Positions 5,375 to 37,853 of a stretch of DNA of 64,000 nucleotides are shown here, piece by piece. Position 1 is the first letter of the stretch, and each line of letters starts with the position of its first letter. The notes under the pieces are model-generated. The model was not told the origin of the DNA. It worked only from the letters and a program-made list of their open reading frames with translations, and ran no database searches. The position numbers and the translations under genes were made by a program. This stretch comes from Mobula hypostoma. Lineage: Eukaryota. Location: NCBI RefSeq assembly GCF_963921235.1, contig NC_086107.1, positions 107,014,001 through 107,078,000 of the forward strand. Direction: 5' to 3'.

Positions 5375-5600
5375 CGCACGAGGTCTAAGGATGCTGGAAG
5401 TCTACAGCAACACACGCAACATGTTGAAAGTTTGTGGAGCGGAATAAACAGTCAAGGTTTTGGGTCGAGACTCCACAGCGGGACTCTTTCGTCAGGGTCC
5501 TGATGAAGGATCTTGGCCTGAAACGTCAACTGTTTATTCCTCTCCATGAATGCTGCCCTGACTTGCTGAGTTCCTCCGGCATTTTGTTTGTGAAATCTCT
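5375..5600. mobile_element. Palindromic PLE-derived mini-element with hammerhead motif
   Basis: Inverted pLTR-like arms; CTGATGA (5500-5506) ... GAAACGTC (5520-5527). Confidence 0.65.
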
Positions 5601-6382
5601 ACTTTAGATCTTTTCATCTTTCCAAACTTCCTCGAGGTTCTGGCATCACCCCTGACTTAAATGCTTGTTTTAGTCCCACAGAGCTGGGTGAAAGGAAATG
5701 TAGCACAGAAACAGGCCCTTTAGGCCAAACTGTCCATGTCAACTATGTTGTCCACCTATGCTACCCCCATTGCCAGCATTAGGCCCATATCCCCCTATTC
5801 TTTCCCTATCCATGCACCTGTCCAAATGCCTTTTAAATGCTGTAATTGTAGCCCCTCTACCCAAAGTCAAAGTAAATTTATTATCGAAGTATATATATGT
5901 CGCTAGGTACTACCCTGAGATTCACTTTCTTGCGGGCATTCACAGTAAGTACAAAGAAACAGAATCCTCGCGCAACAAAAAGGGACAAACAGCCAGTGTG
6001 CAAGACAACAAACTGTGCAAATACAAAAAAAGTAAATAACAAAATAATGATAAATAAATAAGCAATAAATATCAAGAACATGAGATGAAGAATCCTTGAA
6101 AGTGAGTCCATAGGTTGTGGGAACAGTTCAGTGATGGATGGAGTGAAGCTGAGTGAAATTATCCCCTCCGGTTCAAGAGCCTGATGGTTGAGGGGTAATA
6201 ATTGTTCCTGAACCTGCTGGTGTGAGACTCGAGGCTCCTTCTTCCTGATGGCAACAGTGAGAAGGGAGAAACATGCCCTGGATGGCGACAGTAACTATTT
6301 CTGGCAGTCCTGTTCCATTTAACCACCACCCTCTGCCTGAAAAACTTGCTACTTCAGGAAAGGCGTCATCAGTCTTCAATCC

Positions 6383-7225
6383 TGGGACGGCATGGTAGCA
6401 TAGTGGTTGGCACCACACTCTACAGTACGGGCAACCCGGGTTCACTTCCTGCTGCTGCCCGTAAAGGGTTTGTACGTTCTCCCCGTGACCGCGAGGGTTT
6501 CCTCCGGGTGCTCTGGTTTCCTCCCACAGTCCAAAGACGTACTGGTTGGTAGGCTAATTGGTCATTGTAAATTGTTCAAAGTTCAAAGTAAAATTTTTTG
6601 TCAGAGTACACACAGGGTACTATGTACAACCCTGAGATTCTTTTTCTGCGGGCATACTTAGCACAATCTATAGAACAGTAACTGTAAACAGGATCACCGG
6701 ACTGTGCAAATGCAGATTATAAATAAATAAACGAGCATGAAATAACAAGTTGAAAGAGTCCTTAAATGAGTGTAGTTATCCCCTTTTGTTCAAGAGCCTG
6801 ATGGTTGAGCTCTTGAACCTGGTGGTGGGGACACTGAGGCTTTTGATGACGGCAGCGAGAAGAACCTGGCCTGGGTGCCAAGGATCTCTGATGATGAATG
6901 CTGCTTTTTTTCCGGGCAGCATTTCATGTAGATGTGCTCAATAGTTGGGAAGGTTTTACCCACGATGTACCGGGCCAAATCGGTGACCTTTTTGTAGGAC
7001 TTGCCACACAAAGGCACTGGTGTGCCCATACCAGCCTGCAATACAACCAGTCAGCGCACTTTCCACCACACAGCTATAGAAGGATTTTGAGGACATGCCA
7101 AATCTCCGCAGACTCACGAGGAAGCAGAGGCGCTGTCGTGATTAGGTCAGGAGTAAATCGGGAGTTTGCTGGGCAGCAAGGCTCGAAGGCCCAGAAGGGC
7201 CAATTTTGCTCTGTATCCAAATAAA
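6383..7225 (+). mobile_element. tRNA-derived SINE (6383-6577 + 7138-7225) split by a minus-strand Rex1/Babar-type LINE fragment (6578-7137)
   Basis: A-box-like tagcatagtgg, B-box-like ggttcacttcc and core gggtttcctccgggtgctctggtttcctcccac. The SINE tail resumes after the insert, whose ORF 6790..7041 is Rex1-like. Confidence 0.75.
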
Positions 7226-7586
7226 TCCTGAGTGGAACATTTCCAAACAATGGGATAGTGGGTTATTAAAGTTTTACTGTAGAATGCAATGCTGATCTAC
7301 GCCATGTGTGTCTGTAACCTGGTGTGTTTCAGCTGCCAATAAGCCCTGAGGACACTGCTAACATTTTTTTTTTGCATTATGAAGCTGTGCCCTCATTTCC
7401 TCAGTCACTTAAAGCTCAAAATGTTCTCTTTTCATCAGCCCTGTGGGATCCAAGCATTCATAATTTGCCATCCATTTTGTCATCGGTTAGGAATGGGATC
7501 ACCCATTGAATTGGTTCATCTACTTTCGTAATGACTTTTGACGCTTCTATTCTGTCAACGCACACATTTTTATATCCAGTGGCCAC

Positions 7587-8810
7587 TTTAGCAAACAATA
7601 CCAAGGTGGATAGAAAAAGCTTTTTCAAGTATATAAAAAATAAAAGAGAGACGAGAGAGGATATAGGACTGTAAGAAAATGAGGCCGGAGAAATAATAAC
7701 GGGGGCAAGGAGATGGCAGATGAACTAAATGAGTGTTTTGCATCAGTTTTCACTGTGGAAGACATGAGCGGTGTGCCAGGTGTTGAAGGGTGTGAGGGAA
7801 GAGAGGTGAATGCAGTTACTCATACAAGAGTGAAGGTGCTCAAAAACCTGAAGGACCTAAAGGTACGTAAGTCACCTGGACCAGATGAACTGCAATCTAG
7901 AGTTCTGAAAGAGGTAGCGGTAGAGATTGTGGAGGCATTAGTAATGATCTTTCAAGAATCACTGGACTCTGGCATGGTTCCAGAAGTCTGGAAAATTACA
8001 AATATCACTCCACTCTTTAAGAAAGGAGGGAGGCAGCAGAAAGGAGATTATAGCCTGACCTCAGTGATTGGGAAGAAGTTGGAGTCAATTGTTAAGGATG
8101 AGGTTATGGAGTACTTGGTGACACAAGACACGATAGCACAAAGTCAGCACGGTTTCCTTAAGATTACAAATAGGATGAATAAAGGGGATGCAGTGAATGT
8201 TGTATATTTGGATCTTCAGAAGGCCTTTGACAAGATGCCACATATGAGGCTGCTTTCCAAGTTAAGAGCCCATGGTATTACAGGAAACTTTTTAGCAAGG
8301 TTGGAGCATTGGCTGATTGGTAGGAGGCAGCGAGCGGGAATAAGATGATCATTTTCTGGTTGGCTGCCAATGACTAATGGTGTTCCGCAGGGGTCAGGTT
8401 GGGACCTCCTCTTTTTATGCTGTATGTCAATGATTTAGATGATGGAATAGATGGCTTTGTTGCCAACTTTGCAGACGCTATGAAGGGCAGGTAGTGTTGA
8501 GGAAACAGGAAGGCTGCAGAAGGACTTAGACAGATTAGGAGAATGGCCAGGAAACTGGCATATGAAATACAATATTAGAAAATGCATGGTCATGCACCTT
8601 GGTAGAAGAAATAAATGTGCCGAATATTTTCTAAATGGGGAGAAACCCAAAAATCTGAGATGCCAAAGGACCTGGGAGTCCTAGTGCAGAACACTCTCTA
8701 CTTGCAGGTTGAGTCAGTGGTGAGGAAAGGAAATGTAATGTTAGCATTCATTTCAAAAGGTCAAGAATCTAAGAGCAGGGATGTGATGCTGAGGTTTTCT
8801 AAGGCCTGTA
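7587..8810 (+). mobile_element. CR1 LINE internal ORF2 fragment (degenerate)
   Basis: KSPGPD, ITPLFKKG, SQHGF and LDLQKAFDK motifs in ORF 7713..8348; stops and frameshifts downstream. Confidence 0.9.
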
Positions 8811-8844
8811 CTGGACTCAGCATGCAAAACTATTTTAGGGGACC

Positions 8845-9520
8845 TGTCCTGGACGCAGCATGTACGTGCAATCGTGAAGAGAACGCGCCAGCATCTCGAC
8901 TTCCTTCGGAGCCTGCGGGGATTCAGCATGACATCCAAAACTTTGACGAACTTCTGTAGATGTGTGGTGGAGAGTATATTGACTGGCTACATCACAGCCT
9001 GGTATGGAAACACCAATGCCTTTGAATGGAAAATCCTGCAAAAGATGGTGGATTCAGCCCAGTACGTCGAGGGTAAAGCTCTCCCAACCATTGCGCACAT
9101 CTACATGAAATACTGTCATAGGAAAGCAGCATCCATCATCAGAGGTCCTCACCACCCAGGCCATGCTCTTTTCTCACCGCTGCCATCAGGTAGAAGGTAC
9201 AAGAGACACAGAACTCGCACCACCAGTTCAAGAACAGTTACTACCCCTCAACCATCAGGCTCTTGAACATAGGCAATAACTACGCTCACTTGCCCCATCA
9301 CTGAGATGTTTCCACAACCAATGATCTCACTTTAAGGACTTTATCTCATGTTCTCATTATTTATTGCTATTTATTTATACTTGCACAGTTTGTTGTCTCC
9401 TGCACTCTGGCTGATCTTTCATTGATCCCGTTATAGTTACTTTTCTATAAATTTACTAAGTATGCCCACAAGAAAATGAATTTCAGGGTTGTATATGGTG
9501 ACATATATGTAGATTGAGAT
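8845..9520 (+). mobile_element. Rex1/Babar-type LINE 3' fragment
   Basis: ORF 8874..9266 FLRSL..F, NFCRCVVESILTGYITAWYGN, HPGHALF..LPSGRRY; 3' UTR nearly repeated at 62800-63160. Confidence 0.85.
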
Positions 9521-9984
9521 ACCTTTTGAAGTCTCCCTCCTTAACCATGAGATGTCCTCTGGTCAATCATATTGTCACTGAAGTTGAATCAGGAATTGGG
9601 CCTGGAGGTGTCCCAGAAATGAAGATAGGAGATCATGATAAATTGTGGAATAGAAGCACGTGAAGAGTGTGTGGAGATAGCAGAACAGGTAGATAAGATG
9701 GTTAGAAAGGCAGACATTAAGATTCTTGCCTTCACTCGCAATGGCATAGACGACAGAACTTAGCCATGATGGAATTGCGTGTAACACTTCAAAGTTCAAA
9801 AGTACTTACAAAAGATTCATTTTCTTGCAGGCATTCACAGTAGAACATAGAAACACAAGAGAACCAATGAAAAATGATACACAAATTCTGATAAACAACC
9901 AATGTGCAAAAGAAATCAAACTGTGAAAATACAGAAAAAAAATAATATTAAATAAACAATACTGAGAACATGAGTTGTAGAATT

Positions 9985-10250
9985 GTAACGCAACACTCAC
10001 AACGTGCTGGAGGAACTCAGCAGGCCAGGCAGCATCTATGGACAAGAGTAAAATGATCGACATTCCCGGCTGAGACCCTTCCACAGGACTGGACTCTGAC
10101 TTCTCCTGTTCCTTTCCAGTCCTGAAGAAGGGTCTCGGCCGGAAACGTCAACCGTATACTTTTCCATAGATGCTGCCTGAGCTGCTGAGTTCCTCCAGCA
10201 TTTTGTGCGTGTTGCTTTGGATTTCCAGCATCTGCAGATTTTTCTCGTGT
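9985..10250. mobile_element. Palindromic PLE-derived mini-element with hammerhead motifs on both strands
   Basis: Arms ~9990-10092 and ~10116-10213 are inverted copies; plus-strand core CTGAAGA (10122-10128) ... GAAACGTC (10142-10149). Confidence 0.8.
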
Positions 10251-11079
10251 TTGTAGAGCTGTAGACTTGCAATTGGATCCAATATTGGCCTGATGATGGG
10301 ATGACGCTGGAGGGCTGATTTTGTGATTGGACCTGGGACTCTTCCCGCTCACCGCTGTAGACAATTTGGATATTAATATAGGATTATGAAGTTTGCAGAT
10401 GACACAAGTGATAGTGGTGTTGTGACAGTGAGGAGGTGAGCCACAAGTTGGTGGATATTGATCAGCTGGTAAAGATGAGCGGAGCAATGGTAGGTGGGAT
10501 TTACTCTTGGGAAGTGTTAGGTGATATGCTTTGGGAGGATGAATATAGGTAGGAGACACACCGTGGTTGGTAAAGCCCGAGGGCAGATCGAGGACCAGAG
10601 GAATCTGGGTGGACAAGAATCCCTGAAAGTGCTAGTTGTGAAAGTCAGTGAAGACATTTGAAAAAGTTTCCTTCGTTAGCCAGGGGAGAAAAGAAGAGCA
10701 GGGAGAATGTAGAACATAGAACAGTACTACACAGGAACAGGTCAGTCGGTCCACAATATCGTGTCAAACTCATTAAATTATTAATTAAACTAAACTAATC
10801 TCTTCTGCCTACTCAATATTCACATCCCTCCATCCTCATCTAAGAGCTAAGTTTTATTTATTTATTTATTGAGATACAGTGCGGAATAAGCCCCTTGAGC
10901 CACACTGCCCAGCAACTTCCCAATTTAACCCTAGTCGAATCACAGGACAACTTACAATGACCAATTAACCCAGCAACTCATACATCTTTGGACTGTGGGA
11001 GGAAACTGGAGCACTCGAAGGAAACCCATGCGCTCACAAGAAGAATGTACAAACTCCTTTCATTCGACGGCTGAATTAT

Positions 11080-11460
11080 AGAGTCATAGAGCCCCTATGG
11101 CTCAGAAACAGGCCCTTTGGCCCATCTAATCCATGCAGAACTGTTATTTTTTATAATCCAATCAACCCATACCTGGATAATAGCCCTTCATACCCTTCCC
11201 ATCCATGTACTTATCCCAACTTCTCTTAAATATTGAAATCAAACCCAGATCTTCCAGTTCCTCTGGTCGCTTGTTCCTCACCCTCACCACCCTCTGAGTG
11301 AAAAAGCTTTTTCTTAGACTCCCCTTTAATATTTCCCCTTTCACCCTTAACCTATGACCTCTCATTCTAGTTTCACCCAACCTCAGTGGAAAAAGCCTGC
11401 TTAACTCTATTAACTCTATCTAGATCTCTCGTAATTTTGTATGCCTTTGACAAATCTCCC
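11080..11460 (-). mobile_element. CR1 3' fragment
   Basis: ORF 11162..11380 TRMRGHRL, FFTQRVVRV. Confidence 0.8.
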
Positions 11461-13185: not shown

Positions 13186-13469
13186 TCAACCTATCTCCAT
13201 AACTCAGTATCTCGAGTCCTAACAACATCTTCGTACATTTTTTTTTGGACGTTTGGTTGATCGTCGAGCTTGACAAAATGATTGCAGACGTTTCGACTCC
13301 AATCGAGAAGCCATTACCAGTGCGCATTTAAGGGCGTCGTCTCTTCAGAATGGCGGTTTATATACTCCCCGGGAGTTGAACGGATATTGATTAGATGTCA
13401 TGATCTAGATGGCTGGTTCAAAACACTGTGAATAGTTTAGCAGTAGAAGATTCTGACTGGCTAGCTTTG

Positions 13470-13885
13470 AGGGATACTTCATCCCAAATTTTTATGTTCC
13501 ATCTGGGTAGCCTCCAACCTGATTGCATGAATATTGATCTCTCCTTCTGGTAAAAAAATGCCTCCCTCCCCTTCCCCTCTTACCCACTCTGGCCTCTTGT
13601 CCACTTCTCACCTGCCTATCACTTCCCCCGGTACCCCTCCTCCTTCCCTTTCTTCTCTCCCATCAGATTCCTTTTTCTCCAGCCTTTTTTCTTTCCACCC
13701 ACCTGGCATCACCTATCACTTTCTAGCTGCCCTCCTTCCCCTCCTCCCATTTTTTTATTCCGGCCTTTTCCCCCTTCCTTTTCAGTACTGAGAAAAAGGA
13801 ACTCGGTCCAAATCGTCGACTGTTTATTCATTTCCATAGATGCTGCCTGATCTGCTGAGATCCCTCAGCATTTTATGTGAGTTGC
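13470..13885 (+). mobile_element. PLE GIY-YIG end and pLTR fragment
   Basis: F.LGSLQPD.MNID-like coding remnant followed by the same pyrimidine-rich body and end as 37560-37910. Confidence 0.7.
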
Positions 13886-14030
13886 TTTTTATACTCAGTG
13901 CCCTTGACTGATGAAGGCCAGTGTACCAAAAGACTTCTTCACCTCCCTGTCTCTCTGTGACATCATTTTCAGGGAATCATGTGCTTGTACTCCTATGTCC
14001 TTCTTTTCTACAACAGTCCCCAGGTTCCGA

Positions 14031-14557
14031 CAGTCCACTGTGAAAATCCTACACTTCTCTGTTCTACACTCTCCACATTCCTACAGTCCATTGTGACAAT
14101 CCTACACTCCCCTGTTCCACAACACTCTCCACATTCCTACAGTCCACTGTGACAATCCTACACTCCCCTGTTCCACAACACTCTCCACATTCCTACAGTC
14201 CACTGTGACAATCCTACACTCCCCTGTTCCACAACACTCTCCACATTCCTACAGTCCACTGTGACAATCCTACACTCTCCTGTTCCACAACACTCTCCAC
14301 ATTCCTACAGTCCACTGTGACAATCCTACACTCCCCTGTTCCACAACACTCTCCACATTCCTACAGTCCACTGTGACAATCCTACACTCTCCTGTTCCAC
14401 AACACTCTCCACATTCCTACAGTCCACTGTGACAATCCTACACTCCCCTGTTCCACAACACTCTCCACATTCCTACAGTCCACTGTGACAATCCTACACT
14501 CTCCTGTTCCACAACACTCTCCACATTCCTACAGTCCACTGTGAAAATCCTACACTC
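14031..14557. repeat. 56-bp minisatellite, ~9.4 units, inside a minus-strand CR1 fragment (~13890-14720)
   Basis: Unit cagtccactgtgacaatcctacactc(c/t)cctgttccacaacactctccacattccta; unit starts at 14084, 14140, 14196 ... 14532. Confidence 0.95.
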
Positions 14558-15516
14558 AGTTGTCTTCCCAAAAATAGAAAAATTTACGCCCATTCAAATT
14601 AAACTCTGATCGCCATTTCTCAGCCCACTAACCCAGCTGATCAAGATCCCTCCATAAATCCTGAAAACCATCTTCACTAACAATGGCAGCACCAATTTTA
14701 GTGTTGGCTCTAAATCCAAATCGTTTAAAGAACCATAATCTTGAGGACCATAGCCTGAGATCTGCTATGTAGCATTGAGACCAAGGGAGAAAAGGCGACT
14801 TTCTGTGTAATGGTTCCAATGGGTGAATGGAAGTGCTTTCACTACACAGATTGTAGCAGTTTCCTACCACCTTCTCAAGAGGCAATTAGGGATGTGCTTT
14901 AACTTAAGGATTGCCCAAATCCAGAGAATAAGTTACAAAAAATTCACTGGACTTTTTAAATCAGTGATTGTCAGCACTCTCATGAACCAATCAGATTTCT
15001 TCATGCAGCTAAATATCAGTCGGCAGTAAGCTGTATATTCTGGATATGTAAAATATTTAAACGTTGTGATGTAAAATGCCAGTTCAGAATTATGCGCAAC
15101 CACACCCTGTACTGGTTTCCTACCTTGTTCAGTGCTGAAGCACCTTGCCGTCATATTATTTTCCCCTTATGCTGGATTCACCTCCTGGTACTCCTTCCCT
15201 GATTATTCGGGCTAGCAGATGTAGTTGTGCCCATTTTCATCATCAACACTGAACTCCCAGCCAGTGAAAAAATGGCAACTTTGGCCATTCGCAAATGCTT
15301 GCATAGTCTACCAGTCAAAAATTCTCTCCCCGGTTCTGATGAAAGCTCCCAGACTTGAAACATATCACTGATCCTCTGAGAGTTTTCAACATGTTCTGCC
15401 AGAGGTCAGAATCAGAGTCAGGTTTAACATCACTGGCATATATTGTGAAATTTCTTGCTCTGTGACAGCAATGCACTGCAATATCTAATGATAAAAAAAA
15501 CCTTAAAAATGTTAAA

Positions 15517-16378: not shown

Positions 16379-17169
16379 TAAATTACAGTAAGAAAAATAT
16401 ATTACGAAATTAAATAAAATTAGTAGAGCAAAAAGAAAGCAAAAAAAAAGTGATGTAAAGTTCATGGTTCATTGTCCGTTTGCAAATCTGATGGCAGAGG
16501 GGAAGAAGCTGTTCTTTGAGTGTATGTCTTCAGGCTCCTGTATCTCCTCCTTGATGTAGAAGTGAGAGGAGAGCATGTCCTGGGTGATTGGGGTGCTTAG
16601 TGAAAGATGCTGTCTTTTTGAGCTCCCCACTTTGTGTGCGGGGACAGCCTGGCACCATCCGTTTGTTGGGTTTATTCCCTTCCAGCTTTCTCAGCTGGAA
16701 TCTTGCATAGCACGTGCCTCGAACATAATCAGTACGGGATAAAAGGGAGTGAGGGAAGTAGTAGAAAGATTAGATTAAAGATTAGCTTTAGAAGATTAGT
16801 ATTTGTCACACGCACATCGAAACAAACAGTGAAATGCTTCGTTCATGATAAAGGACAGCACAGTCCGAGGATGCGCTGGGGGCAGACCGCAAGTGTCGCC
16901 AAGCTTCCAGCGCCAACATAGCATGCCCACAAGTTACTAACCCTAACCCTCTTTGAAAAGCACCTGGAGGAAACATAGTGATTAAGGGGAGAACGTATAC
17001 AGGCAGCGGCAGAATTGAACCCAGACCACGAAAGCATTATGCTAACTGCCACGCCACCACGAAGGGTGGGGGTGAAGAAGAGCTGAACATAGCACTGGAT
17101 GCACTCTATATATTGCTTTTTATTCTACCCACGTTACTGCTACCTAGTCTCAGTTATTTCTCTCCTACC

Positions 17170-17208
17170 CAGCTCTGATGAAGGATCCCTGATTTGAAAC
17201 ATCAGCTG
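17170..17208 (+). ncRNA. Minimal type I hammerhead ribozyme motif
   Basis: cagct-CTGATGA-a-ggatccctgattt-GAAAC-ATC-agctg; helix I covaries (cagct/agctg) relative to the cagtc/gactg copies. Confidence 0.6.
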
Positions 17209-18129
17209 TTTTCCTCTCCACAGATGCTGCCCGACTGCTGAGTGTTTCCAGCATTTTCCATTATCTGTTTTTATATCAGGTTAGCTCAGTATTTTTTATC
17301 CTACCCGTATACATCTGATTTGTTAGGCAGGTCCTTCCATCAACAACGCACGAGACAGACCAAGAAGTTTAATGCGATTGTAACTGCCACTATTAAGCCA
17401 TATTGACTCATCCTATCGCAGACATTCCCTTTGTTCTACTCCTCCGCCCCTCCACACCTTCTCTCCTACTGAAGACGAACTTGCGTCTCTCCCTTTCCCA
17501 GCTTTGATGAGGGCTTGCAGAGCCAAAGCGTTGGCTGTTTCTTTTTCTAAAGATGTTGCCTGACCAGCATTTTGTGGTTTGTATCATTGACAGAAACCTG
17601 AGATGCAAGGAAGGCCCAACACTCTCTGCTAATGTTCTATCTGGCACTCTGACAGACGCGATCAGTCTTGTGAACTGCTGCCTAATTGAAACATTGACAT
17701 ATTGACAGTCTCACACTCACATTGATAGATCATTCCACATGCCGCACTCGGGCATAAACCCACACTCAATTATTTTTCTGGCCTGACATGCTCAAGGACC
17801 AACACATCACTCATTCCCTGACACTCCCAGTGCCACATGTGAATTGCCTCTCTGTTAGGTCGACTTCTACGTTCGAATACTTCAAAGACTTACATTCAGG
17901 ATTGTTTAATATAATTTCTGATACACAAGTGTAAAAGAGAATAAAGTAATCGTTACTCTGAATCTGATGCAGTGAAAATAAAGCAATAAAATAAGGAACA
18001 GAATAGTAAAAGTAACCACAATAAATATAAATACGTAAAATAGCTTATATACAGAGATTGATTGTATGCCCATAAAGTGACGCTAGGCACAGGAGCGTCT
18101 GTGCATAAGGTGACAGACAGGAAATGATA

Positions 18130-22812: not shown

Positions 22813-24779
22813 TTAGGGAGGAACAGAATATCCAAGTTGGACAATGGAGCGGTGAGTATCACATGGACAATGAGAGAAAGAATCAGGGACATATAACAGA
22901 GAAAGAGTGAGAAAGTATAGATAAACAGTAAAAAGGGGATATGAAGCTGAAAGTAAAAATGAAAATCAAGAAATGCTGAGAGATTTTGTATTCAATTAAA
23001 AGCCTTGAACAGTCTACCAAGTTCGGGATACAGAACGGTTATAGGCCCTTACTACCCAACGAGCCTTTGCTGCCCAGTTACACCCATGTGACCAATTAGC
23101 CTGCTAACTGGTATGTCTTTGGAGGAAACTAGAGCACCCAGGAGAAACCAGTGCGGTCACGGGAGGGAGGGGGGACATGTACAGACTCCTTGCAGACAGC
23201 AGTGGGAATTGAACTGGCAGAGTAATAGTGTTGTGCTAACCACTATGCATTGTATCCTCCCCTCTTTCAACTGCAATATTTATTGAATAAGGTGGTCAAA
23301 ATTAGAAAGAATAGACCCCTGTCCTGTTGAAAGGCTATTGCCTTGAAAGGGTAACACTCACTCTCTGTTTCTATACAGACCTGGTCAAAACTGCCGAGTA
23401 CTGACTGAAAGTTTTCTTTTACCTCTGGGTTTCCAGCATCTGCGGTATTTTGGTTTTGACACCTTTCCCTCACTTTACTCCACTTTATCCAGTCTTCCCA
23501 GGAGTTTGGACAAATAACCACTAGTTGGGACTGAGCACTGGATGGCAGGGCAAAGAGTAAGGGATGGACTGTTCAGGAATGTGATAATTGTCATGAGCCC
23601 TGCCGGCCTGTGCACCTGTAGTTGTTAATTACTGTCTCATCTAGAATCATTAATCCCTTGTGCTTCCCGTTTAATTGTGTGAAGTCTATTTTGACTGGCA
23701 TGGGTTTTCTGCGCACTGTGATTATTTAAAAAGGACTCCTGGTTAATGCTTATTGCAGGGTCTTTGTTTCTCAAGAATGTTCCATCTCGTGGTGTTGCTC
23801 GGTCGAGCCACCAATGTTCTGATGGAATTTCTATGTATAAACATTTGTTTCCGTCTCTAAACAGGAGTCTGTTATTCTTCCACACCTGGGTTCAGTCATT
23901 ACCAGCACGCACCGTGATAGATAATGGTAGTAAACTGGGAAGACTCCGTCCTGGAGCTTATAGATGTAGAGCCATTGAGTACATCAGAGGGAATGGGAGA
24001 CCAGCTGGGAAAGTGGGCAAGGTTCGGGATCCAGTATGATCTTTTGGAATGATGGAAAACACCTGAGAGGACACGGGGTCACAAAGAGTCACCTCCTGCT
24101 CTGATCATTAACTAATGAGCACAAATTCCCTTTTGTTACTCACCTGCTATGGGCAAGATACAGCAATCAATTAACCTTCTTATTCTGGCTTCTGTCCCTT
24201 CCATTTCCAGTCCTGGTGAAGGGTAATGGCCCAATACATCGGCTGTTTATTCCCCTCCATAGATGCTGCCTGACTCGCTGAGTTCCTCCAGCATTTTGTG
24301 TGTGCGGTGCTTTAGATTTCCAGCTTCTGCACAATCTCTTGTGCACCAACTAACCTACGACCATACTGCTCTCCTCTGGGATGTGGGAGGAAACCAGAGA
24401 GCACCTGGGAGGAATCCACACAAACGGAGAACATGCGAACTCCACACAGATAGTATAAGAGGCCAGGATTGAACTTGGATCCCCAGTGCTATGGGGCAGC
24501 ACCTCTACCAAACTCATCACTGTGCTTCCCCCCCCCCCACAAGGTCTCCTCCTGCCTTTGTAGCCACGTGCTCCTGTGCAACGACCCGCAGAGGATTAAG
24601 GAGCAGGGATTTTATTTGTATCTTTATTCAGAGATTCAGCACATTAATCGGCCCTTCAGCCTAGCAAGCCTGTGCTGCCTGCTTACCAATTAACCTACTA
24701 ACTTGTACGTCCTTGGAGTGTGGAAGGAAAGAGGAGAACTTGAAGTAAACCCACATGGTTAAGGGGAGAGTATACAACC

Positions 24780-26236: not shown

Positions 26237-27029
26237 TGGAAATCTAGAACTTCCTCCCCCCGGAAAGGTAATATACATCCTGATTTCATCGATTTGCGGC
26301 ACCAGCTTTCACTGATCGGGGTTCAATTCCCGATGCTGCCCGTAAGGAGTTTGCACGTTCTCCCTGTGAATGCGTGGGTTTTCTCCGGGTGCTCTGGTTT
26401 CCTCCCACAGTCCAAAGTTAGGAATAGCACGTTGTGCATTGCTGTGTGGGGCAGGAGCGCGTGGTCACTTGCAGGCTGCCTAGTTTAATCTATGCTGATT
26501 CGATTTGATGCAGAATGACGCATTTCACGGTATGTTTCGACGTACGTGTGTCAAATAAAGTCAACGAAGCTATTCTTTAAGGCTTATTTTTATCATCAGG
26601 TCATTAACAAGGAAGGAAGTGTACTCAGGGATCCCGGGTGAACTGAGCTGGGGGTGCTGATCAGCGAAGAGGAGGTTGAATAGCAGAACAAGCTGGCACA
26701 GACCGATGGCCGCCTGTTTCTGTGTGTGTATTCTGTAGGCCTTCAATGCTGTAATGCAGTAAAAATTGCTAATCATTCCCACATAGAACAGTACAGGCCC
26801 TTCAGCCCACAATGTTGTCCTGACCCTTTGGCCTACTCTAAGATCAATCTAACCCTTCCCTCCTACATAGCCCTCCATTTTTCTATCATCCGTGTGCCTT
26901 TATAAGAGTCTGTTGAATATCCCTAAGGTATCTGCCTCTATCACCACCCATGGAGGTGTATTGTGCACTGACCCTTCCCTCCCCACATAGCCCTTCAGTT
27001 TTCTTTCATCCATGTGCTTATAATATCAT

Positions 27030-27465: not shown

Positions 27466-28477
27466 AAGATATCTCAGAGTCTCTTGAATACCCCTAATGT
27501 ATCTGTCTCTCTCACCACCCTGGGTTCCATGTACCCACTACTCTCTGTGTAAAAAGCCTACCTCTGACATTGCCCCCGGTATAACGCCTGACATATTTTC
27601 ACATTATAGTCCAAACATAGCTTTGGGTGCTATGAGGAACTACCTGAAAGTGGGGTATATGGTGGTATCCTGGGTCTCGGCCCGAAACGCCAACTGTTTA
27701 TTCATTTCCATACACGCTGCCTGACCTGCTGAGTTCCTCCAGCATTTTGTCTGTATTGCTCTGGATTTCCAGCATCTGCAGACTCCCTCGCTTGTTTACG
27801 TTCTGAGTTCGCCCCCAATCTCGGGTGCGGCAAGAGGTAAGCTAGCCTTGTTGACCTCGGTCTTGATTCTGTGCTGGAGCAGTTGAAATTTTTGGAGGAG
27901 AGTTGAACATAACTAATGAGCATTGTCAGGGTACAACTATTGTTTCTCCTTCAGTTTTTTGGTGTTTTCTTTCTTGTGGCCAATTGGCGGGTGGGTGATC
28001 TGTTAACTTTTTGTGTGTAAGAGGGAGGGTTGGGGGATTTGATACTACTGTCCCTGTTCTTTTGTGCAAGTGAGGGATTGAGGATTGTTATTGTCACTTA
28101 TTTTTTTCTCTGCTGGTGAGGGAGCCGGGGATTGTTATTGTCACTTCTTCTGCGGCTGAGGGAGTGGGGGATTTTGAGGTCTGCGAGCTTTGTTTCTCTG
28201 CTTTTTCATGCCAGTTGAGGGGGAGTTGATGTCCTTTCTTTCATCAACTCCCATGGTCTTTCTGTATATAATGGCTATCTGGAGAAGACAAATATCAGAG
28301 TTGTATTGTACATGCATACTTTGACAATAAAATTGACCTTTGAACCTTTGGACTACTACAACGACTGAGGACAGCGGTTTTCATCACCCAGTCAGAGCCT
28401 GTGATCTGGAATGCACTGTCTGAAGTGACAGGGAAAGATAAAGATTCAGAATAGCTTTATTTGTCACAGGTACATAC

Positions 28478-31089: not shown

Positions 31090-31905
31090 AACCTAACATC
31101 GATTTCTCTGTCTTTGGATCATTTCTCTTCCTCCTCCTTCTCTGTTTTTCCATTCCCCATACCAGCTCCGCTCTTACCTTCTCTTCTCATCACTTGCCTA
31201 TCATTCCCTTCTGGTGCCCCCCACTTCCTTTTCTCCCATGGTCCACTCTCCTCTCCTATCAGATTCCCTCTTCTTCAGCCCTTTATCTTTCTATTTTCCA
31301 CCTATGATTGGGCGGGATGGTAATATAGTGGTTAGCACGACACCTTACAATACAGGAGACCTGGGTTCAATTCCCGTTGCTGCCTGTAAGATGTTTGTAC
31401 ATTCTCCCTGGGTGCTCCAGTATCCTCCCACAGTCCAAAGACCTACTGATTGCTAGGTCAATTGGTTATTGCAAATTGTCCTATGATTACACTAGAATTA
31501 CTTTGGGGATTACTGGGTGGCGTGACTCAAAGGGCCGGAAGGATTTGGGATATATTCCATGCTATCTCCCAATAAATAAAAATACTCCCAGCTTCTCACT
31601 TCATCTCTCCTTCCCCACCCACCCCCCTTCCCTCTCACCTATGCCCTGCTAGCTTGTACTCCTTCCCCTCTCCAACCTTCTTATTTTAGCTTCTTCCCCC
31701 TTCCTTTCCGGTTCTGACGAAGGTGGGGAGGAGAGGACGGGGGGGGAGGGGGGAGAGAGAGGGGAGAGGGGGGAGGGGTGGGGAGAGGGGTAGAAGGGGG
31801 AGAGGGGAGGGGAAGGGGAGAAGGGGGAGAAGAGGAGAGGGGGGAGGAGAGGGGATGGGGGGAGAGATGCTGCCTGGCCTGCTGAGTTTCCCCAGCATTT
31901 TGTGC
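31090..31905 (+). mobile_element. PLE pLTR-derived element split by a tRNA-SINE (~31310-31580) and carrying a G/A-rich expansion
   Basis: ccacctat...|SINE|...ctcccagcttctcacttc is contiguous in the copy at 1379-1410. Confidence 0.7.
31722..31867. repeat. Polypurine G/A-rich tract
   Basis: Many G3-G8 runs separated by a/ag. Confidence 0.95.
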
Positions 31906-32009: not shown

Positions 32010-32340
32010 CTTTCCGGTTAAAAAAAACTCCCTCCCCCTCCTCGCTCTGGCCTCTTACCTCTTCTCATGTGCCTGGTGCCCCTCCTTCTTCCCTTCCTCC
32101 ACTCTCCTCTCCAATCAGATTCCTTCCTCTCCAGACCCTGACCTTTCCCACCCACCTGGCTTCACCCATCACCTTCCAGCTGGTCCTCCTTCCCCTCCCC
32201 CCCCCACTTTTTATTCTGGCATCTTCCCCCCTTCCGTTCCAGTCCTGATGAAGGGTCGCAGTCCAAAACGTCAACCGTTTATTCCTCTCCATGGATGCTG
32301 CCTGACCTACTGAGTTCCTCCAGCATTTTGTGTGTTACCT
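32010..32340 (+). mobile_element. PLE pLTR-derived fragment with mutated hammerhead
   Basis: cagtc-CTGATGA-agggtcgcagtcc-aAAAC-GTC at 32240-32272. Confidence 0.7.
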
Positions 32341-33584: not shown

Positions 33585-34082
33585 GTGAAAGGGCTGATCG
33601 TGTCCAGTCTGGGACAGCTCACTCACCTTCAGTCTGTACCATTCACTAAGCTCTCAACTGTGACTCCAAGTATGTGCATGTGATAGCGGCCCCAACCCGG
33701 TACACCGCTTTGACAGGTGGGCTGGACCAGGTGAGAGTAGGTGGTGGCCTCATACTCCGGTGAGATAGGGACATGCCTGTCCCAGCATGCAAGGTTAGAT
33801 CTGGCGGACTGGGCGGATGAGATCTACAGTGAGGTCCAATGGCCAGGAAGGTGGGACTATTACACTCCATGGAGAGCGAAGGGCATGACGAGCCACAGAA
33901 GATGTCATGTTCCTCCACTGCAACCAAGGAAGACCCCAGTTTGTGATGCTTGTTCATACCACTAAACCCTGACTTCTGAGGTCGAGAGAGTGAACAGCCC
34001 CAGTGCAACAGCTTTTCCACTTCAAAAACTCTCCCGCACAGGTCCCCTGTCCTCGTCGGACAGCAAGGACGACCACCACCAT
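33585..34082 (+). mobile_element. Probable RTE-related short element (family B)
   Basis: GC-richer block ending in a gacgaccaccacc tail; family assignment by recall only. Confidence 0.4.
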
Positions 34083-34249
34083 ACATCTAATGGTTAATAT
34101 ACAATCGCACTACAAATACATGATTGCACTACATAATGCCATTAGGGGAGAGTTGACTGCCATCAAAATGGATATTATATTGGAAACCGAGGTTGGTTAT
34201 TTGTGTTAGTAATCTGGAAGCCTGAGATACCTTATAGACAGTACATTTC

Positions 34250-34720
34250 TGAGTGAAATCAGAAGCATGATGAAATCAGAAATCCAATGAAATAGTCAGA
34301 AATCTGATGAAATCAGAAACACGTTGAAATAGTCAGAAATCTGATGAAATCAGAAACATGATGAAATCAGAAATACGATGAAATCAGAAACACGTTGAAA
34401 TAGTCAGAAATCCGATGAAATCAGAAACATGATGAAATAATCAGAAATCTGATGAAATCAGAAATACGATGAAATCAGAAACACGTTGAAATAGTCCGAA
34501 ATCTGATGAAATCAGAAACACAATGAAATAATCAGAAATCCGATGAAATCAGAAACATGATGAAATCAGAAGCACGATGAAATCAAAAGCACAATGAAAT
34601 AGTCAGAAATGGGTCAAAATCAGAAACACGAAATCAGAAACACATTGAAACGGTCAGAAATACGAGGAAATCAGAAACACAATGAAATCAGAAACACGAT
34701 GAAATGGTCAGAAACACGAA
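34250..34720. repeat. 17/20-bp minisatellite (gaaatcagaaacacgat variants) abutting the exon 2 donor
   Basis: About 25 degenerate units of tgaaat(ag/aa t)cagaaa(cac/tcc)ga. Confidence 0.92.
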
Positions 34721-34735
34721 AGGAGGCAAACTTAC

Positions 34736-34819
34736 GTAAGAAGTATTCAGCTGCATCTGCTTCATAATCTGCGTCTTCCGGGAAGTGGTCAATCTGCTTA
34801 CATAACCCTTTAAAGTTTC
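34736..34819 (-). CDS. cacng2: cacng2 (stargazin / TARP gamma-2) coding exon 2
   Basis: Minus strand reads ...ttctcattgaacag|GAAACTTT...TTCTTAC|gtaagt; 84 bp, phase 1/1. Translates (G)[27 protein letters not shown](R), matching the recalled CACNG2 first extracellular loop. Joins exon 3 in frame (C|GC = Arg). Confidence 0.95.
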
Positions 34820-35167
34820 CTGTTCAATGAGAAACAGGGAGAAATAAGTGAACTTTTCCTGCATGAACCATTAGCACAGAACCAGGGGAATGAACCCAGC
34901 AAGAAAAGGTTGGAAATACTCAGCAGATCCGGCAGCATCTGTGGAGGGAGAAAGCACAGAGGACAGGCCTTCCAATGGAACTAAGAATCATTAACTATCA
35001 AACGTTTTTTTCAGTTGCAGACAAGGTGTTGAGGTGGGGGTTAGGGGTGGGGAGAATAAAGGGAAGGTCTATGATGTGGTGGAGAGACTAAATGACACAT
35101 GTGGTGTTGGTGGTGGGATGTGAAGGTATGTTAATTGTAGCTGATACATCTGGAGAAGGTGTAAATA

Positions 35168-36384
35168 CACTCAATGGCCACATTATTAGCTACCTATACC
35201 TAATAAAGTGGCCACAGATTGTACGTTCATGATCTTCTGCTGCTGTAGCCCATCCACTTCAAGGTTCAATGTGTTGTGCATTCAGAGATGCTCTTCTGTA
35301 CATCACTGTTGTAACACATGGTTATCTGAGTTACTGTCACCTTCCTGTCAGCTTGAACGAGTCTGATCATTCTCCTTTGATCTCTCTCATTGACCAGGCA
35401 TTTTCACCCACAGAACTGAATTGAATTGTATTTGAATTAAATTGAATTGACTTTATTACTTACATCCTTCACGTACACGTTACGTCTCCATTCAAATGTA
35501 TAACAGGATAGTCAATATAACATAGAAATACAGTTGCGTCAGCATGTTAATCAGTCTGATGGCCTGGTGGAAGAAACCGTCCCGGAGCCTGTTGATCCTG
35601 GCTTTAATGCTGCAGTGCTATTTCCTGGGTGGTAGCAGTTGGAACAGTTTGTGGTTGGGGTGACTCAGGTCACCAATGATCCTTTGGGCCCTTTTTACAC
35701 ACCTGTCTTTGTAAATGTCCTGAATAGTGGGAAGTTCACATCTACAGATGCGCTGGGCTGTCCGCACCACTCTCTGCAGAGTCCTGCGATTGAGGGAAGT
35801 ACAGTTCCCATACCGGGCAGTGATGCAGCCAGTCAGGATGCTCTCAATTATGCCACAGTAGAAAGTCCTTAGAATTTGGGGACTCATACCAAACTTCTTC
35901 AACCAACTGAGGTGAAAGAGGTGCTGTTGTGCCTTTTTCACCACGCAGCTGGTATGTACAGACCACGTGAGGTCCTTGGCGATGTTTATGCCGAGGAACT
36001 TAAAGCTGTTCACCCTCTCAACCCCAGATCCATTGATATCTATAAGGGTTAGCCTGTCTCCAATCCGCTCACCGAATGTATTTTTTTCGTTTTTCGCACC
36101 ATTCTCTGCAAACTCTAGAGACTGTTGTGCATGAAAATCCCAGGAGATCAGCAGTTTCTCAGATACTCAAACCACCCTGACTGGCAGCAAGATCGTTTCC
36201 CCGGTCAAAGTCACTCAAATCACATTTCTTACCCATTCTGATATTTGGTCTGAACACCAACTGAACCTCATGACCATGTCTGCGTGCTTTTATGCATTGA
36301 GTTGCAGCCACACGATTGGTTGATTAGATATTTGTACTGATGGGCAGATGTACAAGTGTACCTAATAAAGTGGCCACTGATGTG
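35168..36384. mobile_element. Tc1/mariner-like non-autonomous element interrupted by a minus-strand Rex1-type LINE (~35419-36064)
   Basis: TIRs ta|cactcaatggccacattattag ... cctaataaagtggccactga; homologous to 58515-59210. Insert ORF 35618..36013 FKFLGI..LTW..KKAQQ.L. Confidence 0.8.
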
Positions 36385-37105
36385 GAGGAGATGTTTGAAA
36401 TCAAAAATAGAGAGACAATATCCATGGACAACAATTGAAGCTGGGATATTCAGAAGCTACAGTTGCTGTAAATTGGAAATAAAAACAGAAAGTTCCGGAA
36501 GTCTGCAGCTGCGGAGGCATCCATGGAGGGGGAAGAAAGCAGTAAGTGTTGGCTTTTCATCAGATCTGGCCCTATTAACTGGAAAGGCAGATTACCTAAC
36601 GTTATTGAATTCAATGTTAAGTCCTCGGGGCTTTATTGTGCTTCATTAGAAGAGTTGTTCCCTGAGCCTATATTAGGCTTTGCAGGGACACAGTCAGATG
36701 CTAAAGTCAGAGAGATCGGAGAGGTATGGGATGGAGAATTAAAGCCACAGATATGTTGGGATAGAGATGTGAAAAGGAAGTTGAATTTCTTATGACAGAA
36801 GAGAGTCTGCGGATGCTGGAAATCTTGAGCGACACACGCACAGAATTCTGTAGGAACTCAGCAGGTCAGGCAGCATCTATGGAGCGGAATAATTAGCCTG
36901 ATCTGCTGAGTTCGTCCAGCATTTTGTGTTCGTCTTCCTCTTTAATATCTTATCCCGTGTATACGACAGAAGGCCTTACTATGATTATTTGAAATTATAT
37001 ATTTTAAATGATAAACACGAGAAATTCTGCTGGAAATCCAGAGCAACAAAGACAAAATGCTGGAGGAACTCAGCAGGTCAGGCGGTATCTACGGAAATGA
37101 ATAAA

Positions 37106-37143
37106 TAGTCGATGTTTCGGGCTGAGACCCTTCTTCAGAACTG
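37106..37143 (-). ncRNA. Minimal type I hammerhead ribozyme motif (sense to cacng2 pre-mRNA)
   Basis: cagtt-CTGAAGA-a-gggtctcagccc-GAAAC-ATC-gacta; core intact, helix III reduced to two potential pairs. Confidence 0.7.
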
Positions 37144-37815
37144 AAAAGGAAGGGGTAAAACACCAGAATAAAAAAGAAAATACTTACCCCTGAGGTGTCT
37201 AAAGTGCTACACCTGCCCATTCACCTCCTCCCTCACTTCCATTCAGGGCCCTAAACTGTCCTTCCAAGTGAGAAAACACTCCACCTGCCAATCTGCTGGG
37301 GTCACTTATTGTGCCTGGTGCTCCCGATGCCATCTCCTCTACACTGGTGAGACCCGTCGTAAACTGCAGGGCCCACTTCATCAAGCACCTCTGCTCCATT
37401 CGCCAAAAACGGGGCTTCCTGATGGCCAAGCATTTTAATTCTCATTCCCATCCCCGTTCCCGTTCTGACCTCCCCTTGTGCCAAGATGGGGGTACTCTCA
37501 GGCCACAGGAGCAGCATTTTATATTCCATCCAGGTAACCTCCTTTCTGATGGCATGAATTTCAATCTCTCCTTCCGGTAATTTTTTTCCTCCGCTCCCCT
37601 CTTCTTCTATTCCACACTCTGGCCTTTTACCTCCTCTCACCTGCCTATCACTTCCCCCTGGGTCCCTTTCTCCTATGGTCCACTCTCCTCTCCTATCAGA
37701 TTCCTTCTTCTCCAGCCCTTGACCTTTCCCACCCACCTGGATTCACCCATTGCCTTCCAGCTAGTCTCCTTCCCCTACCACACCTTCTTATTCTAGCATC
37801 TTCCCCCTTCCATTT

Positions 37816-37853
37816 CAGTCCTGAAGAAGGGAGGCGGCCCGAAACATAGACTG
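37816..37853 (+). ncRNA. Minimal type I hammerhead ribozyme motif
   Basis: cagtc-CTGAAGA-a-gggaggcggccc-GAAAC-ATA-gactg; helix I cagtc/gactg is perfect. Confidence 0.65.

What the first reader, a model, noticed from the sequence alone, without database searches (positions are those of the whole stretch)
5495..37853. Dispersed family of minimal hammerhead ribozyme motifs in Penelope-derived repeats
Seen: a recurring ~38-nt unit, consensus cagtc-CTGA(T/A)GA-a-gggtctcggccc-GAAAC-GTC-gactg. Plus-strand copies lie at ~5495-5532, 10117-10154, 17170-17208, 32240-32277 and 37816-37853; a minus-strand copy at 37106-37143; decayed copies near 1500, 13785, 15333, 17500, 24207, 27670, 47010 and 59785. 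The unit has the hammerhead core (CUGANGA...GAAA...UH), a 5-bp helix I that covaries (cagtc/gactg versus cagct/agctg), a short helix II, and helix III collapsed to the palindrome ACGU. Known: Penelope-like elements carry such minimal type I hammerheads in their pLTRs, thought to cleave as dimers. Inference: this is a very high-copy ribozyme-bearing repeat family in this genome. Many copies have ACGT decayed to ACAT (CpG loss), which should weaken dimer helix III.
Basis: partly seen in the sequence, partly recalled or inferred. Interest (0 to 1): 0.8.

Follow-up and report, generated by a model that had tools for sequence, protein, structure and literature searches.

The report
Penelope-type minimal hammerhead relics, high copy
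The recurring 38-base unit is the small hammerhead ribozyme motif carried at the tail of a Penelope-like jumping gene that has flooded this genome; the kind is already known, and every copy in this window is a decayed relic.

Summary
Observation confirmed.

Interpretation supported.
- In long copies two units sit 3.5 kb apart, flanking the ORF as pLTR-ORF-pLTR.
- It shows the published marks of Penelope-like-element minimal hammerheads: an extra base after A9, no helix III loop, and an ACGU palindrome that requires dimers (PMC4209133).

Genome-wide, 44,925 copies match a 33-nt intact motif exactly, against 0 for the control.

Caveats:
- 0 of 17 window copies pass a strict hammerhead descriptor.
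- No Rfam hammerhead model matches.
- Covariation is not above shuffles, although core columns are more conserved than the rest.

Modestly new points:
- The dominant young form has U, not C, at position 11.1.
- A sublineage with C at the catalytic position A6 makes up 25% of an older subfamily.

Cleavage was not tested. The scan has noted this kind before in other genomes. Known kind, new member; interest low to moderate.

The parts
5493..5535 (+). Hammerhead-like unit. Core and ACGU are intact. Helix I has 3 of 5 pairs and helix II 3 of 4.
   Evidence: CM hit at 50.2 bits, E 1.7e-11; per-copy check.
5446..5488 (-). Decayed unit lying head to head with 5493-5535. Four core changes.
   Evidence: CM hit at E 0.0048, not a seed row.
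10115..10157 (+). Unit with core and ACGU intact. The 10.1-11.1 pair reads G-G and helix I has 3 of 5 pairs.
10051..10093 (-). Decayed unit head to head with 10115-10157. It begins exactly at helix I, and its tail runs leftward to about 9971.
17168..17211 (+). Unit of an older, different subfamily with a 13-nt helix II. Core intact, helix I 5 of 5, ACGU decayed to ACAU.
   Evidence: 20 relatives aligned.
17497..17540 (+). Decayed unit with changes at C3, G12 and A15.1.
32238..32280 (+). Unit with G12 changed to A.
37814..37856 (+). Unit with core intact and ACGU decayed to ACAU. It belongs to the element fragment 37202-37963.
37202..37571 (+). Remnant of the GIY-YIG endonuclease coding region of the same Penelope-like element copy.
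   Evidence: tblastn with the endonuclease frame of L019: 76% identity over 55 aa plus 48% over 71 aa, E 1.5e-31.
37103..37145 (-). Unit on the minus strand with core intact and ACGU decayed to ACAU. It is the inverted short copy next to the 37202-37963 fragment.
   Evidence: CM hit at 55.3 bits.
13781..13825 (+). Decayed unit with three core changes and a 2-nt insertion.
13437..13544 (+). Weak endonuclease coding remnant upstream of the unit at 13781.
   Evidence: tblastn E 8.5e-4.
1493..1535 (+). Decayed unit with a deletion in the CUGANGA box.
15329..15372 (+). Weak, divergent unit. Core letters are intact and ACGU is decayed.
   Evidence: CM hit at E 0.012, not a seed row.
24206..24248 (+). 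Decayed unit with three core changes.
27670..27699 (+). Copy truncated inside the unit. It starts at helix II.
47010..47049 (-). Decayed unit with four core changes. It begins at GTC of helix I.
59776..59818 (+). Decayed unit with three core changes.
36537..36570 (-). Doubtful fragment in which helix II is missing.
   Evidence: CM hit at E 0.0038.
10158..10257 (+). The roughly 100-nt tail that follows the predicted cleavage site. It is the second conserved block of the element's 3' end.
   Evidence: nhmmer hit 10061-10257; block conservation; sequence read.

Best explanation
The units are copies of the minimal type I hammerhead motif in the pseudo-LTR (3' tail) of an endonuclease-bearing Penelope-like retroelement (PLE). 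The element looks Neptune/Nematis-like because of its C-x4-C-x2-C linker.

Shown here:
- Motif layout: a 5-nt helix I strand, CUGANGA, one extra A, a 12-nt helix II hairpin, GAAA, then the palindrome A-C-G-U with no loop, then C, then the other helix I strand.
- Position: about 300 nt after the ORF stop, and about 100 nt before the 3' end of inserted copies.
- In long copies the unit occurs twice in the same orientation, 3.5 kb apart, around the ORF.
- A recent burst left about 45,000 letter-perfect motifs.
- The window holds only old, mostly 5'-truncated or inverted tail fragments whose motifs are broken.

Inferred from published work on other PLEs, not tested here:
- In a transcript or RNP holding two units, the two ACGU palindromes pair to make helix III, and helix I forms in trans.
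- Each unit then cuts after GUC. This probably needs the element's protein, and it trims unit-length RNA from longer precursors.
- Reverse transcription starts at the end of the tail, downstream of the cut site. Inserted copies therefore carry the uncut motif.
For: Copy number:
- The 25-nt core pattern with up to 2 mismatches occurs 159,911 times, control 0.
- The exact 33-nt motif occurs 44,925 times, control 0.

PLE context:
- GIY-YIG scores 23.6 bits against a cut-off of 22.6 in L010:3562-4212.
- RVT_1 scores 24.0 bits, E 3.6e-5.
- YIDD, DKG, C-x4-C-x2-C and GIY...YIG are visible in the translation. These are diagnostic features per PMC8557442 (passages read).
- Two same-strand units lie 3,512 nt (L019) and 3,520 nt (L020) apart around a 935-aa open frame.
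- Endonuclease remnants lie upstream of two window units.

Published min-HHR marks (PMC4209133):
- The extra base after A9 is A in 41 of 44 aligned copies.
- The 15.2-16.2 positions form a loop-less palindrome.
- Inverted 5'-truncated neighbours are present.

Conservation:
- Nine non-CpG core columns average 0.90 majority frequency, against 0.71 for 121 non-motif columns (Mann-Whitney p 3e-5).
- Helix columns average 0.82 (p 0.008) and the conserved tail block 0.81 (p 0.002).

Strict descriptor: 2 hits in 200 kb of random genome, 0 in reversed and shuffled controls.
Against: - No Rfam hammerhead family matches the window at gathering score or at E <= 10, nor an intact young copy.
- Covariation is not above chance. 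Cells paired are 74.4% against 74.0% shuffled (154 of 500 shuffles as high), and the covariation score is 0.233 against 0.220 (93 of 500) on A1. On A2 the figures are 78.2% against 77.5% (113 of 500) and 0.226 against 0.211 (73 of 500).
- Nearest-neighbour energies favour an inactive monomer fold that pairs G5-G8 with 15.2-17 (-11.0 and -12.9 kcal/mol). The hammerhead-like fold scores -7.0 and -8.9. The double-hammerhead pairing (-11.5 and -16.7) is weaker than two monomers.
- 85 of the first 100 perfect copies have U at 11.1, not the usual G10.1-C11.1 pair.
- A sublineage with C at A6 reached 2,334 copies, against 6,287 with A and 598 with G or T in the same context. Amplification therefore did not need an intact core.
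- In the one PLE tested in vitro, core mutants did not affect insertion, and no RNA-seq reads ended at the cut site (PMC11167929, passages read).
- Cleavage was not tested here.
Confidence: 0.85

Rival explanations
1. The block is kept for a role other than self-cleavage, and the hammerhead is vestigial or only hitch-hikes. Possible roles are a binding or positioning site for the element's RT-EN protein near the start of reverse transcription, or part of an internal promoter or initiator.
For: - The A6-to-C sublineage makes up 25% of the older CCAGTC subfamily.
- The dominant young form has U at 11.1.
- There is no significant covariation.
- The inactive fold is favoured.
- 18 of 44 copies lose pLTR sequence just before helix I. 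The helix I strand reads like an initiator-type word; that consensus is recalled, not tested.
- Published: core mutants insert normally in vitro (PMC11167929), and PLE clades without hammerheads proliferate well (PMC8557442, passages read).
Against: - Every invariant hammerhead core letter, with its spacing, is kept in the lineage that still has long open frames.
- Core columns are more conserved than helices and than the other conserved block.
- Related PLE hammerheads do cut as dimers or with protein (PMC4209133, PMC11167929).
Confidence: 0.12
2. The short copies are a non-autonomous retrozyme-like family: small hammerhead-bearing units that spread through circular RNA. They would not be plain truncated PLE tails.
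For: - Many copies are only hammerhead plus tail, about 135 nt.
- Vertebrate retrozymes are reported to derive from PLE pLTRs (bioRxiv 10.64898/2026.07.22.740005; abstract and Results read).
Against: - Among the first 100 perfect motifs listed, no two on the same strand lie within 1 kb. Close neighbours are all head to head.
- The window has no tandem array of the unit.
- Copies extend by variable lengths into the ORF, as 5' truncation would give.
Confidence: 0.03
3. Chance resemblance: an ordinary repeat that happens to contain CTGANGA and GAAAC.
For: No Rfam hammerhead model matches.
Against: The motif combines a full core, a correct UH site, both helices, the extra base and the palindrome, and it sits in the pLTR of an RT + GIY-YIG element. 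This is the published architecture (PMC4209133).
Confidence: 0.01

Closest known systems
Minimal hammerheads (min-HHR) in the pLTRs of metazoan Penelope-like elements (Cervera and de la Pena 2014, PMC4209133). Dimer cleavage is reported in Lunse, Weinberg and Breaker, of which I saw only the title, in the reference list of PMC6765202; the paper is not held.
   Same: - Type I layout with a short helix I (5 bp).
- An unpaired base between A9 and 10.1.
- No helix III loop, and a palindromic 15.2-16.2.
- Location in both flanking repeats of an RT + GIY-YIG element.
- Mostly solitary truncated copies, with some pairs close together on opposite strands.
   Different: - Helix II is 4 bp here, whereas 6-8 bp is described for Schistosoma and Drosophila.
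- The dominant young form has G10.1-U11.1 instead of G-C.
- Copy number is far higher than the roughly 4,000 (coelacanth) and 9,000 (Xenopus) quoted in that paper.
- The paper's supplementary alignments were not consulted, so I cannot say whether this family is already listed there.
Poseidon element PAc of Anolis carolinensis (PMC11167929, passages read)
   Same: - pLTR-ORF-pLTR organisation with a hammerhead.
- Inserted copies end at a 'tail' downstream of the motif, which fits internal initiation of reverse transcription.
- Evidence that an intact core is not needed for insertion.
   Different: - In PAc the ORF starts inside the hammerhead. Here the upstream unit ends about 140 nt before the first ATG of the long frame.
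- The linker Cys motif here points to Neptune or Nematis rather than Poseidon.
Non-LTR retrozymes and amphibian satellite hammerheads (PMC7229834, seen in a search listing only; bioRxiv 10.64898/2026.07.22.740005)
   Same: Type I hammerhead with a weak palindromic helix III, and a reported origin in PLE pLTRs.
   Different: Those occur in head-to-tail arrays and have canonical loops. No such arrays were seen here.

Membership tests
PLE minimal hammerhead (Cervera and de la Pena 2014) | Conserved core: CUGANGA, GAAA, and a U-H cleavage site | tested here: met
   44,925 exact genomic copies. The core is intact in 6 of 17 window copies and 4 of 27 random-sample copies.
PLE minimal hammerhead (Cervera and de la Pena 2014) | One unpaired nucleotide between A9 and 10.1 | tested here: met
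   A in 41 of 44 aligned copies, G in 2, missing in 1.
PLE minimal hammerhead (Cervera and de la Pena 2014) | Conserved G10.1-C11.1 pair | tested here: inconclusive
   C at 11.1 in 15 and U in 85 of the first 100 perfect copies. Older copies show GC in 16, GU in 17 and AU in 2 of 43 cells with letters. C11.1-G12 is a CpG.
PLE minimal hammerhead (Cervera and de la Pena 2014) | No helix III loop, with palindromic 15.2-16.2 (dimer design) | tested here: met
   ACGU in the intact form. In the window it has decayed to CA, TG or CC in 11 of 17 copies.
PLE minimal hammerhead (Cervera and de la Pena 2014) | Consensus families with compensatory changes in helices I and II | tested here: inconclusive
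   Double changes exist: CG 12 and UA 12 at pair 2.1-1.1, and GC 23 and AU 6 at pair 10.3-11.3. The totals do not exceed shuffles. The sample consists of decayed copies, not subfamily founders.
PLE minimal hammerhead (Cervera and de la Pena 2014) | Lies in both flanking repeats of a PLE | tested here: met
   L019 and L020 each hold two same-strand units around the ORF. L018 shows one unit in the stretch fetched.
PLE minimal hammerhead (Cervera and de la Pena 2014) | Self-cleavage as a dimer | not testable with these tools
   Only energies were computed. No RNA run on record was available.
Rfam hammerhead families | Match to a curated covariance model | tested here: not met
   No hammerhead hit at gathering score, none at E <= 10 on the window, and none on an intact young copy. 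These models expect a helix III hairpin; that statement is recalled.
Endonuclease-bearing Penelope-like elements | Single ORF with an RT followed by a C-terminal GIY-YIG nuclease | tested here: met
   GIY-YIG passes Pfam's cut-off in one of two copies tested at E <= 10 (23.6 bits against 22.6; the other scores 14.1). Three shorter pieces gave nothing at E <= 0.01. RVT_1 scores 24.0 bits, below its cut-off of 29.6. YIDD is visible. In L019 the RT and EN parts lie in different frames.
Endonuclease-bearing Penelope-like elements | [quoted passage not shown] | tested here: met
   Read by eye in the translation of L019 against the descriptions in PMC8557442. No profile or tree was made, so the clade call is tentative.
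Endonuclease-bearing Penelope-like elements | Partial tandems (pLTR), inverted 5'-truncated neighbour, frequent 5' truncation | tested here: met
Non-LTR retrozymes | Head-to-tail arrays of a short hammerhead-bearing unit | tested here: not met
   No same-strand neighbours within 1 kb among the first 100 perfect motifs. No array of the unit in the window.

The most novel reading that the evidence does not exclude
This genome offers a natural experiment showing that hammerhead catalysis is dispensable for Penelope-like element spread in vivo. A sublineage with C at the catalytic position A6 multiplied to thousands of copies. The currently dominant lineage runs with a G-U wobble at 10.1-11.1. About 40% of copies start right at the motif's 5' edge. 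The block would then be kept mainly as a structural or initiation signal (RNA 5' end or protein-binding site), with self-cleavage secondary.
Probability: 0.3. Interest if true: 0.55.

Novelty: new member of a known kind. Interest (0 to 1): 0.3.

Why it matters
It matters little for the kind itself. Hammerheads in Penelope-like elements have been known since 2014, and dimer cleavage and protein assistance have both been reported.

The value here is as material:
- About 45,000 letter-perfect motifs lie beside hundreds of thousands of dated relics.
- A dead-core sublineage exists.
- A wobble variant of the usually fixed 10.1-11.1 pair dominates the young copies.

Together these give a large, graded natural data set for asking what the ribozyme does for the element. 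The literature read here calls that question open (PMC8557442, PMC11167929).

For annotation, these sites should be masked as PLE tails and not called as ribozyme genes.

Tried and rejected
- **Rfam scans**: no hammerhead hit. The weak miRNA-like hits at 36896-37083 and 35163-35226 are inverted repeats; the first is a pair of inverted PLE tails.
- **Sequencing runs**: no RNA holder listed. All 22 runs are kept as contigs of unrecorded kind, so nothing can be said on expression, RNA ends or cleavage. The contigs agree only that both C and U occur at 11.1 and that the element ends near L019:5756-5758.
- **Pfam on short ORF pieces**: nothing at E <= 0.01. Longer pieces were needed.
- **Covariation counts**: not above shuffles.
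- **The A6-to-C idea in the young family**: among otherwise perfect 33-mers, C (147) is no more frequent than G plus T (333). There it is mutational noise. Only in the older CCAGTC context is it an amplified variant.
- **The 56-nt tandem array at 13954-14681**, next to a PLE tail: unrelated to the tail by eye.
- **A wider random sample of the genome**: not obtained. The sample is 20 pieces of 10 kb.
- **Lunse et al.**: not held.
- **Supplements**: those of PMC4209133 were not opened, and bioRxiv supplements are closed. They may list this family or clade.


Full report
**What is in the window.** The window is 64 kb of a 3.48-Gb, 200-contig assembly. It has 45% G+C and a CpG observed/expected ratio of 0.36, which is typical of a methylated, vertebrate-like genome.

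I built a covariance model from 51 copies (alignment A1; model R1) and ran it over the window without filters. It gives 23 hits at E <= 1 and 17 at E <= 0.012.
- All 14 reader sites are among the 17. The one at 47010 is on the minus strand.
- Three more sites appear: 10051-10093(-), 5446-5488(-) and 36537-36570(-).
- Eleven of the 17 were seed rows and match by construction. The other six are independent: 47010, 59776, 27670, 36537, 5446 and 15329.

A loose core pattern gives 8 matches against 1.23 expected, and 0 of 100 shuffles reach 8. Two of the 8 are unrelated.

**What the repeat is.** A 25-nt core pattern with up to 2 mismatches occurs 79,763 + 80,148 times in the genome, and its reversed control 0 times. 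Flanks of eight such places show the same order each time:
- the end of a coding region;
- about 300 nt of pyrimidine-rich sequence;
- the unit;
- about 100 nt of conserved tail.

The coding region ends in a GIY-YIG nuclease. Pfam PF01541 scores 23.6 bits against a cut-off of 22.6 in L010. A second copy scores 14.1, and three short pieces gave nothing. Upstream lies a reverse transcriptase. RVT_1 scores 24.0 bits, below its cut-off of 29.6, at E 3.6e-5. A YIDD box is visible.

[quoted passage not shown] Craig et al. describe these as diagnostic of endonuclease-bearing Penelope-like elements, with the linker motif typical of Neptune and Nematis and absent from Penelope/Poseidon (PMC8557442, passages read).

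A protein search with the RT-linker part had 134,394 first-look candidates. All 147 that were scored match at E <= 1.5e-125, with open frames up to 935 aa. I fetched three loci with such frames:
- two carry the unit twice on the same strand, 3,512 and 3,520 nt apart, around the frame;
- the third shows one unit in the stretch fetched.

In L019 the upstream repeat follows the C-terminal end of another copy's ORF. This is the partial-tandem 'pLTR' structure of these elements.

In the window itself, tblastn with the nuclease frame finds remnants at 37202-37571 (E 1.5e-31) and 13437-13544 (E 8.5e-4). Each lies just upstream of a unit. 'Penelope-derived' is therefore right at the class level.

**Anatomy against the published motif.** The intact form reads, in order:
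- a 5-nt helix I strand;
- CUGACGA;
- one extra A;
- a 12-nt helix II (4 bp closing a 4-nt loop);
- GAAA;
- C-G;
- U;
- C, with the cut predicted after it;
- the other helix I strand.

A15.1-C15.2-G16.2-U16.1 is the palindrome ACGU with no loop. Helix III therefore cannot form within one unit.

Cervera and de la Pena (PMC4209133, main text parts 1-2 read) list four emergent marks of PLE minimal hammerheads. Here they fare as follows:
- Consensus families with covariation: inconclusive (see the covariation results below).
- A conserved G10.1-C11.1 pair: only partly met.
- Palindromic 15.2-16.2: met.

On the third mark, among the first 100 of 44,925 exact 33-nt motifs, 85 have U and 15 have C at 11.1. 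All three long-frame loci have U. C11.1-G12 is a CpG, so a deamination fixed in a founder copy is the simple explanation.

No Rfam hammerhead model matches the window or an intact young copy. Membership therefore rests on the published descriptor features, not on a curated model.

**State of the copies.** I checked each aligned copy for the 11 fixed core letters, H17, the helices and the palindrome.

| Sample | Copies | Core intact | Core + helix I >= 4 bp + helix II >= 3 bp + CG at 15.2-16.2 |
|---|---|---|---|
| Window | 17 | 6 | 0 |
| 20 random 10-kb pieces | 27 | 4 | 3 |

A strict descriptor written independently finds 0 in the window and 2 in the random 200 kb. It finds 0 in reversed sequence and 0 in 50 block shuffles.

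The window therefore holds only relics. CpG loss at 15.2-16.2 (CA 7, TG 3, CC 1 of 17) is one of several kinds of damage.

Twenty-seven hits per 200 kb extrapolates to roughly 0.47 million recognisable units genome-wide. This is a rough figure from a small sample. The window is about twice as dense.

**Is the motif under constraint?** After insertion, copies decay neutrally. Differences between columns therefore reflect what varied among founders.

On the 69 profile hits in the window and random sample (31 and 38), mean majority frequencies are as follows:

| Column set | Columns | Mean majority frequency | Mann-Whitney p (one-sided, core higher) |
|---|---|---|---|
| Non-CpG core | 9 | 0.90 | reference set |
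| Non-CpG outside the unit | 121 | 0.71 | 3e-5 |
| Helix columns | 16 | 0.82 | 0.008 |
| Second conserved block (tail) | 32 | 0.81 | 0.002 |

Caveats: the columns and copies are not independent, and a profile alignment favours matches at its best columns.

Covariation, by contrast, is not shown.
- On A1, 74.4% of cells pair against 74.0% in shuffles (154 of 500 as high). The covariation score is 0.233 against 0.220 (93 of 500).
- On the model-fitted A2, 78.2% pair against 77.5% (113 of 500), and the score is 0.226 against 0.211 (73 of 500).
- The slid controls are far lower (17-42%), but the structure was derived from these sequences.

However, its 20 closest relatives mostly do not share the compensating side.

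**Evidence that catalysis is not strictly needed.** I compared position 6 in the older subfamily context (helix I strand CCAGTC, CpGs allowed to decay):

| Letter at position 6 | Copies | Share of 9,219 |
|---|---|---|
| A | 6,287 | 68% |
| C | 2,334 | 25% |
| G or T | 598 | 6.5% |

The four A6-to-C copies in the random sample also share a different downstream word from the A-bearing ones. This is therefore an amplified sublineage, not noise.

In the young family, C at position 6 is at noise level: 147 copies against 333 with G or T and 44,925 with A.

That A6 is essential for cleavage is established hammerhead biochemistry. I recall this; it was not tested here.

This fits the one PLE tested in vitro. 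There, core mutants did not change insertion, the ribozyme needed the element's protein, and reverse transcription began internally at the 'tail' (PMC11167929, passages read).

Folding energies point the same way.
- The single unit prefers a hairpin that pairs G5-A6-C7-G8 with C15.2-G16.2-U16.1-C17 (-11.0 and -12.9 kcal/mol).
- The hammerhead-like pairing scores -7.0 and -8.9.
- The double-hammerhead pairing of two units (-11.5 and -16.7) is weaker than two separate hairpins.

These energies ignore tertiary contacts.

**Most likely mechanism.**
- Shown: the architecture, the copy numbers and the decay of the window copies.
- Inferred from the literature: transcripts that span two pLTRs, or two RNAs in one particle, pair their ACGU palindromes and swap helix I strands, and each unit cuts after GUC with protein help, releasing unit-length RNA.
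- Also inferred: the RT starts at the end of the tail, about 100 nt beyond the cut site. Every inserted copy therefore carries an uncut unit plus tail, and 5' truncation gives the many short copies.

Solitary units, such as all those in the window, have no same-strand partner nearby and are in any case broken.

**Comparison and novelty.** The kind is known (PMC4209133; reviewed in PMC6765202, passages read). This scan has also noted it in other genomes.

Points that are new, at least relative to what I could read:
- The scale: that paper quotes about 4,000 and 9,000 motifs for coelacanth and Xenopus.
- The U11.1 majority form.
- The A6-to-C sublineage.

I did not see the paper's supplements or Lunse et al., which may cover more.

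Verdict: a correct reading of a known class. It is a new member of that class, not a new kind. Interest is 0.3.

Noticed in passing
L021-L040 and window (44 aligned copies); L019:5622-5626: Copies tend to begin at the 5' edge of the motif.
- 18 of 44 copies have no pyrimidine-rich pLTR sequence in the 35 nt before helix I (C+T <= 0.57, against 0.60-0.89 in the other 26). Several start exactly at CCAGTC or GTC.
- Genome-wide, 45,350 of 62,809 exact core-start words keep the 8 upstream letters.
- This may mark an RNA 5' end (initiator-like word) or a template-switch point.
   Followed up: partly
window 9971-10257, 5403-5645, 37005-37963; G000:C1 pairs: Head-to-head pairs (minus copy on the left, plus copy on the right) are common. 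Four pairs lie less than 100 nt apart among the first 100 perfect motifs. These pairs give the weak miRNA-like Rfam hits at 36896-37083.
   Followed up: partly
L018, L019, L020 (935-aa open frames); L019 about 4900-5004: In L019 the RT part and the GIY-YIG part lie in different reading frames, while L010 reads through in one frame. L018 and L020 have a frame of the same length, 935 aa, but their nuclease part was not checked. This could be a shared break, an assembly artefact in a C-run, or recoding.
   Followed up: no
L019:5655-5760; window 10158-10257: The tail after the cut site is a second conserved block (mean majority frequency 0.81). It folds into a long-range 9-bp stem enclosing a smaller hairpin, at -26.2 kcal/mol, z -1.85, with 7 of 200 shuffles folding as well. 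It is a candidate recognition structure for the start of reverse transcription.
   Followed up: partly
window 34217-34714: A tandem array of 17-20-nt units rich in GAAATCAGAAA. It produces a false CTGANGA..GAAAC match at 34449.
   Followed up: no
window 13954-14681: Ten or more copies of a 56-nt tandem repeat, 95-99% alike in the middle of the array. It starts just after a PLE tail but is unrelated to it by eye.
   Followed up: partly
window 6469-6541, 26350-26422, 38194-38266, 54930-55002, 59834-59906: Another dispersed repeat family of about 73 nt with 60-85% identity between copies. It looks like a SINE core and is not part of the PLE tail.
   Followed up: no
window 35163-35226: A near-perfect 64-nt hairpin that scores on both strands against a microRNA model, far below its threshold (33.8 bits against 80, E 0.005).
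   Followed up: no
window 44329-45171 and 31716-31865: Long CT-rich and G-rich low-complexity tracts.
   Followed up: no
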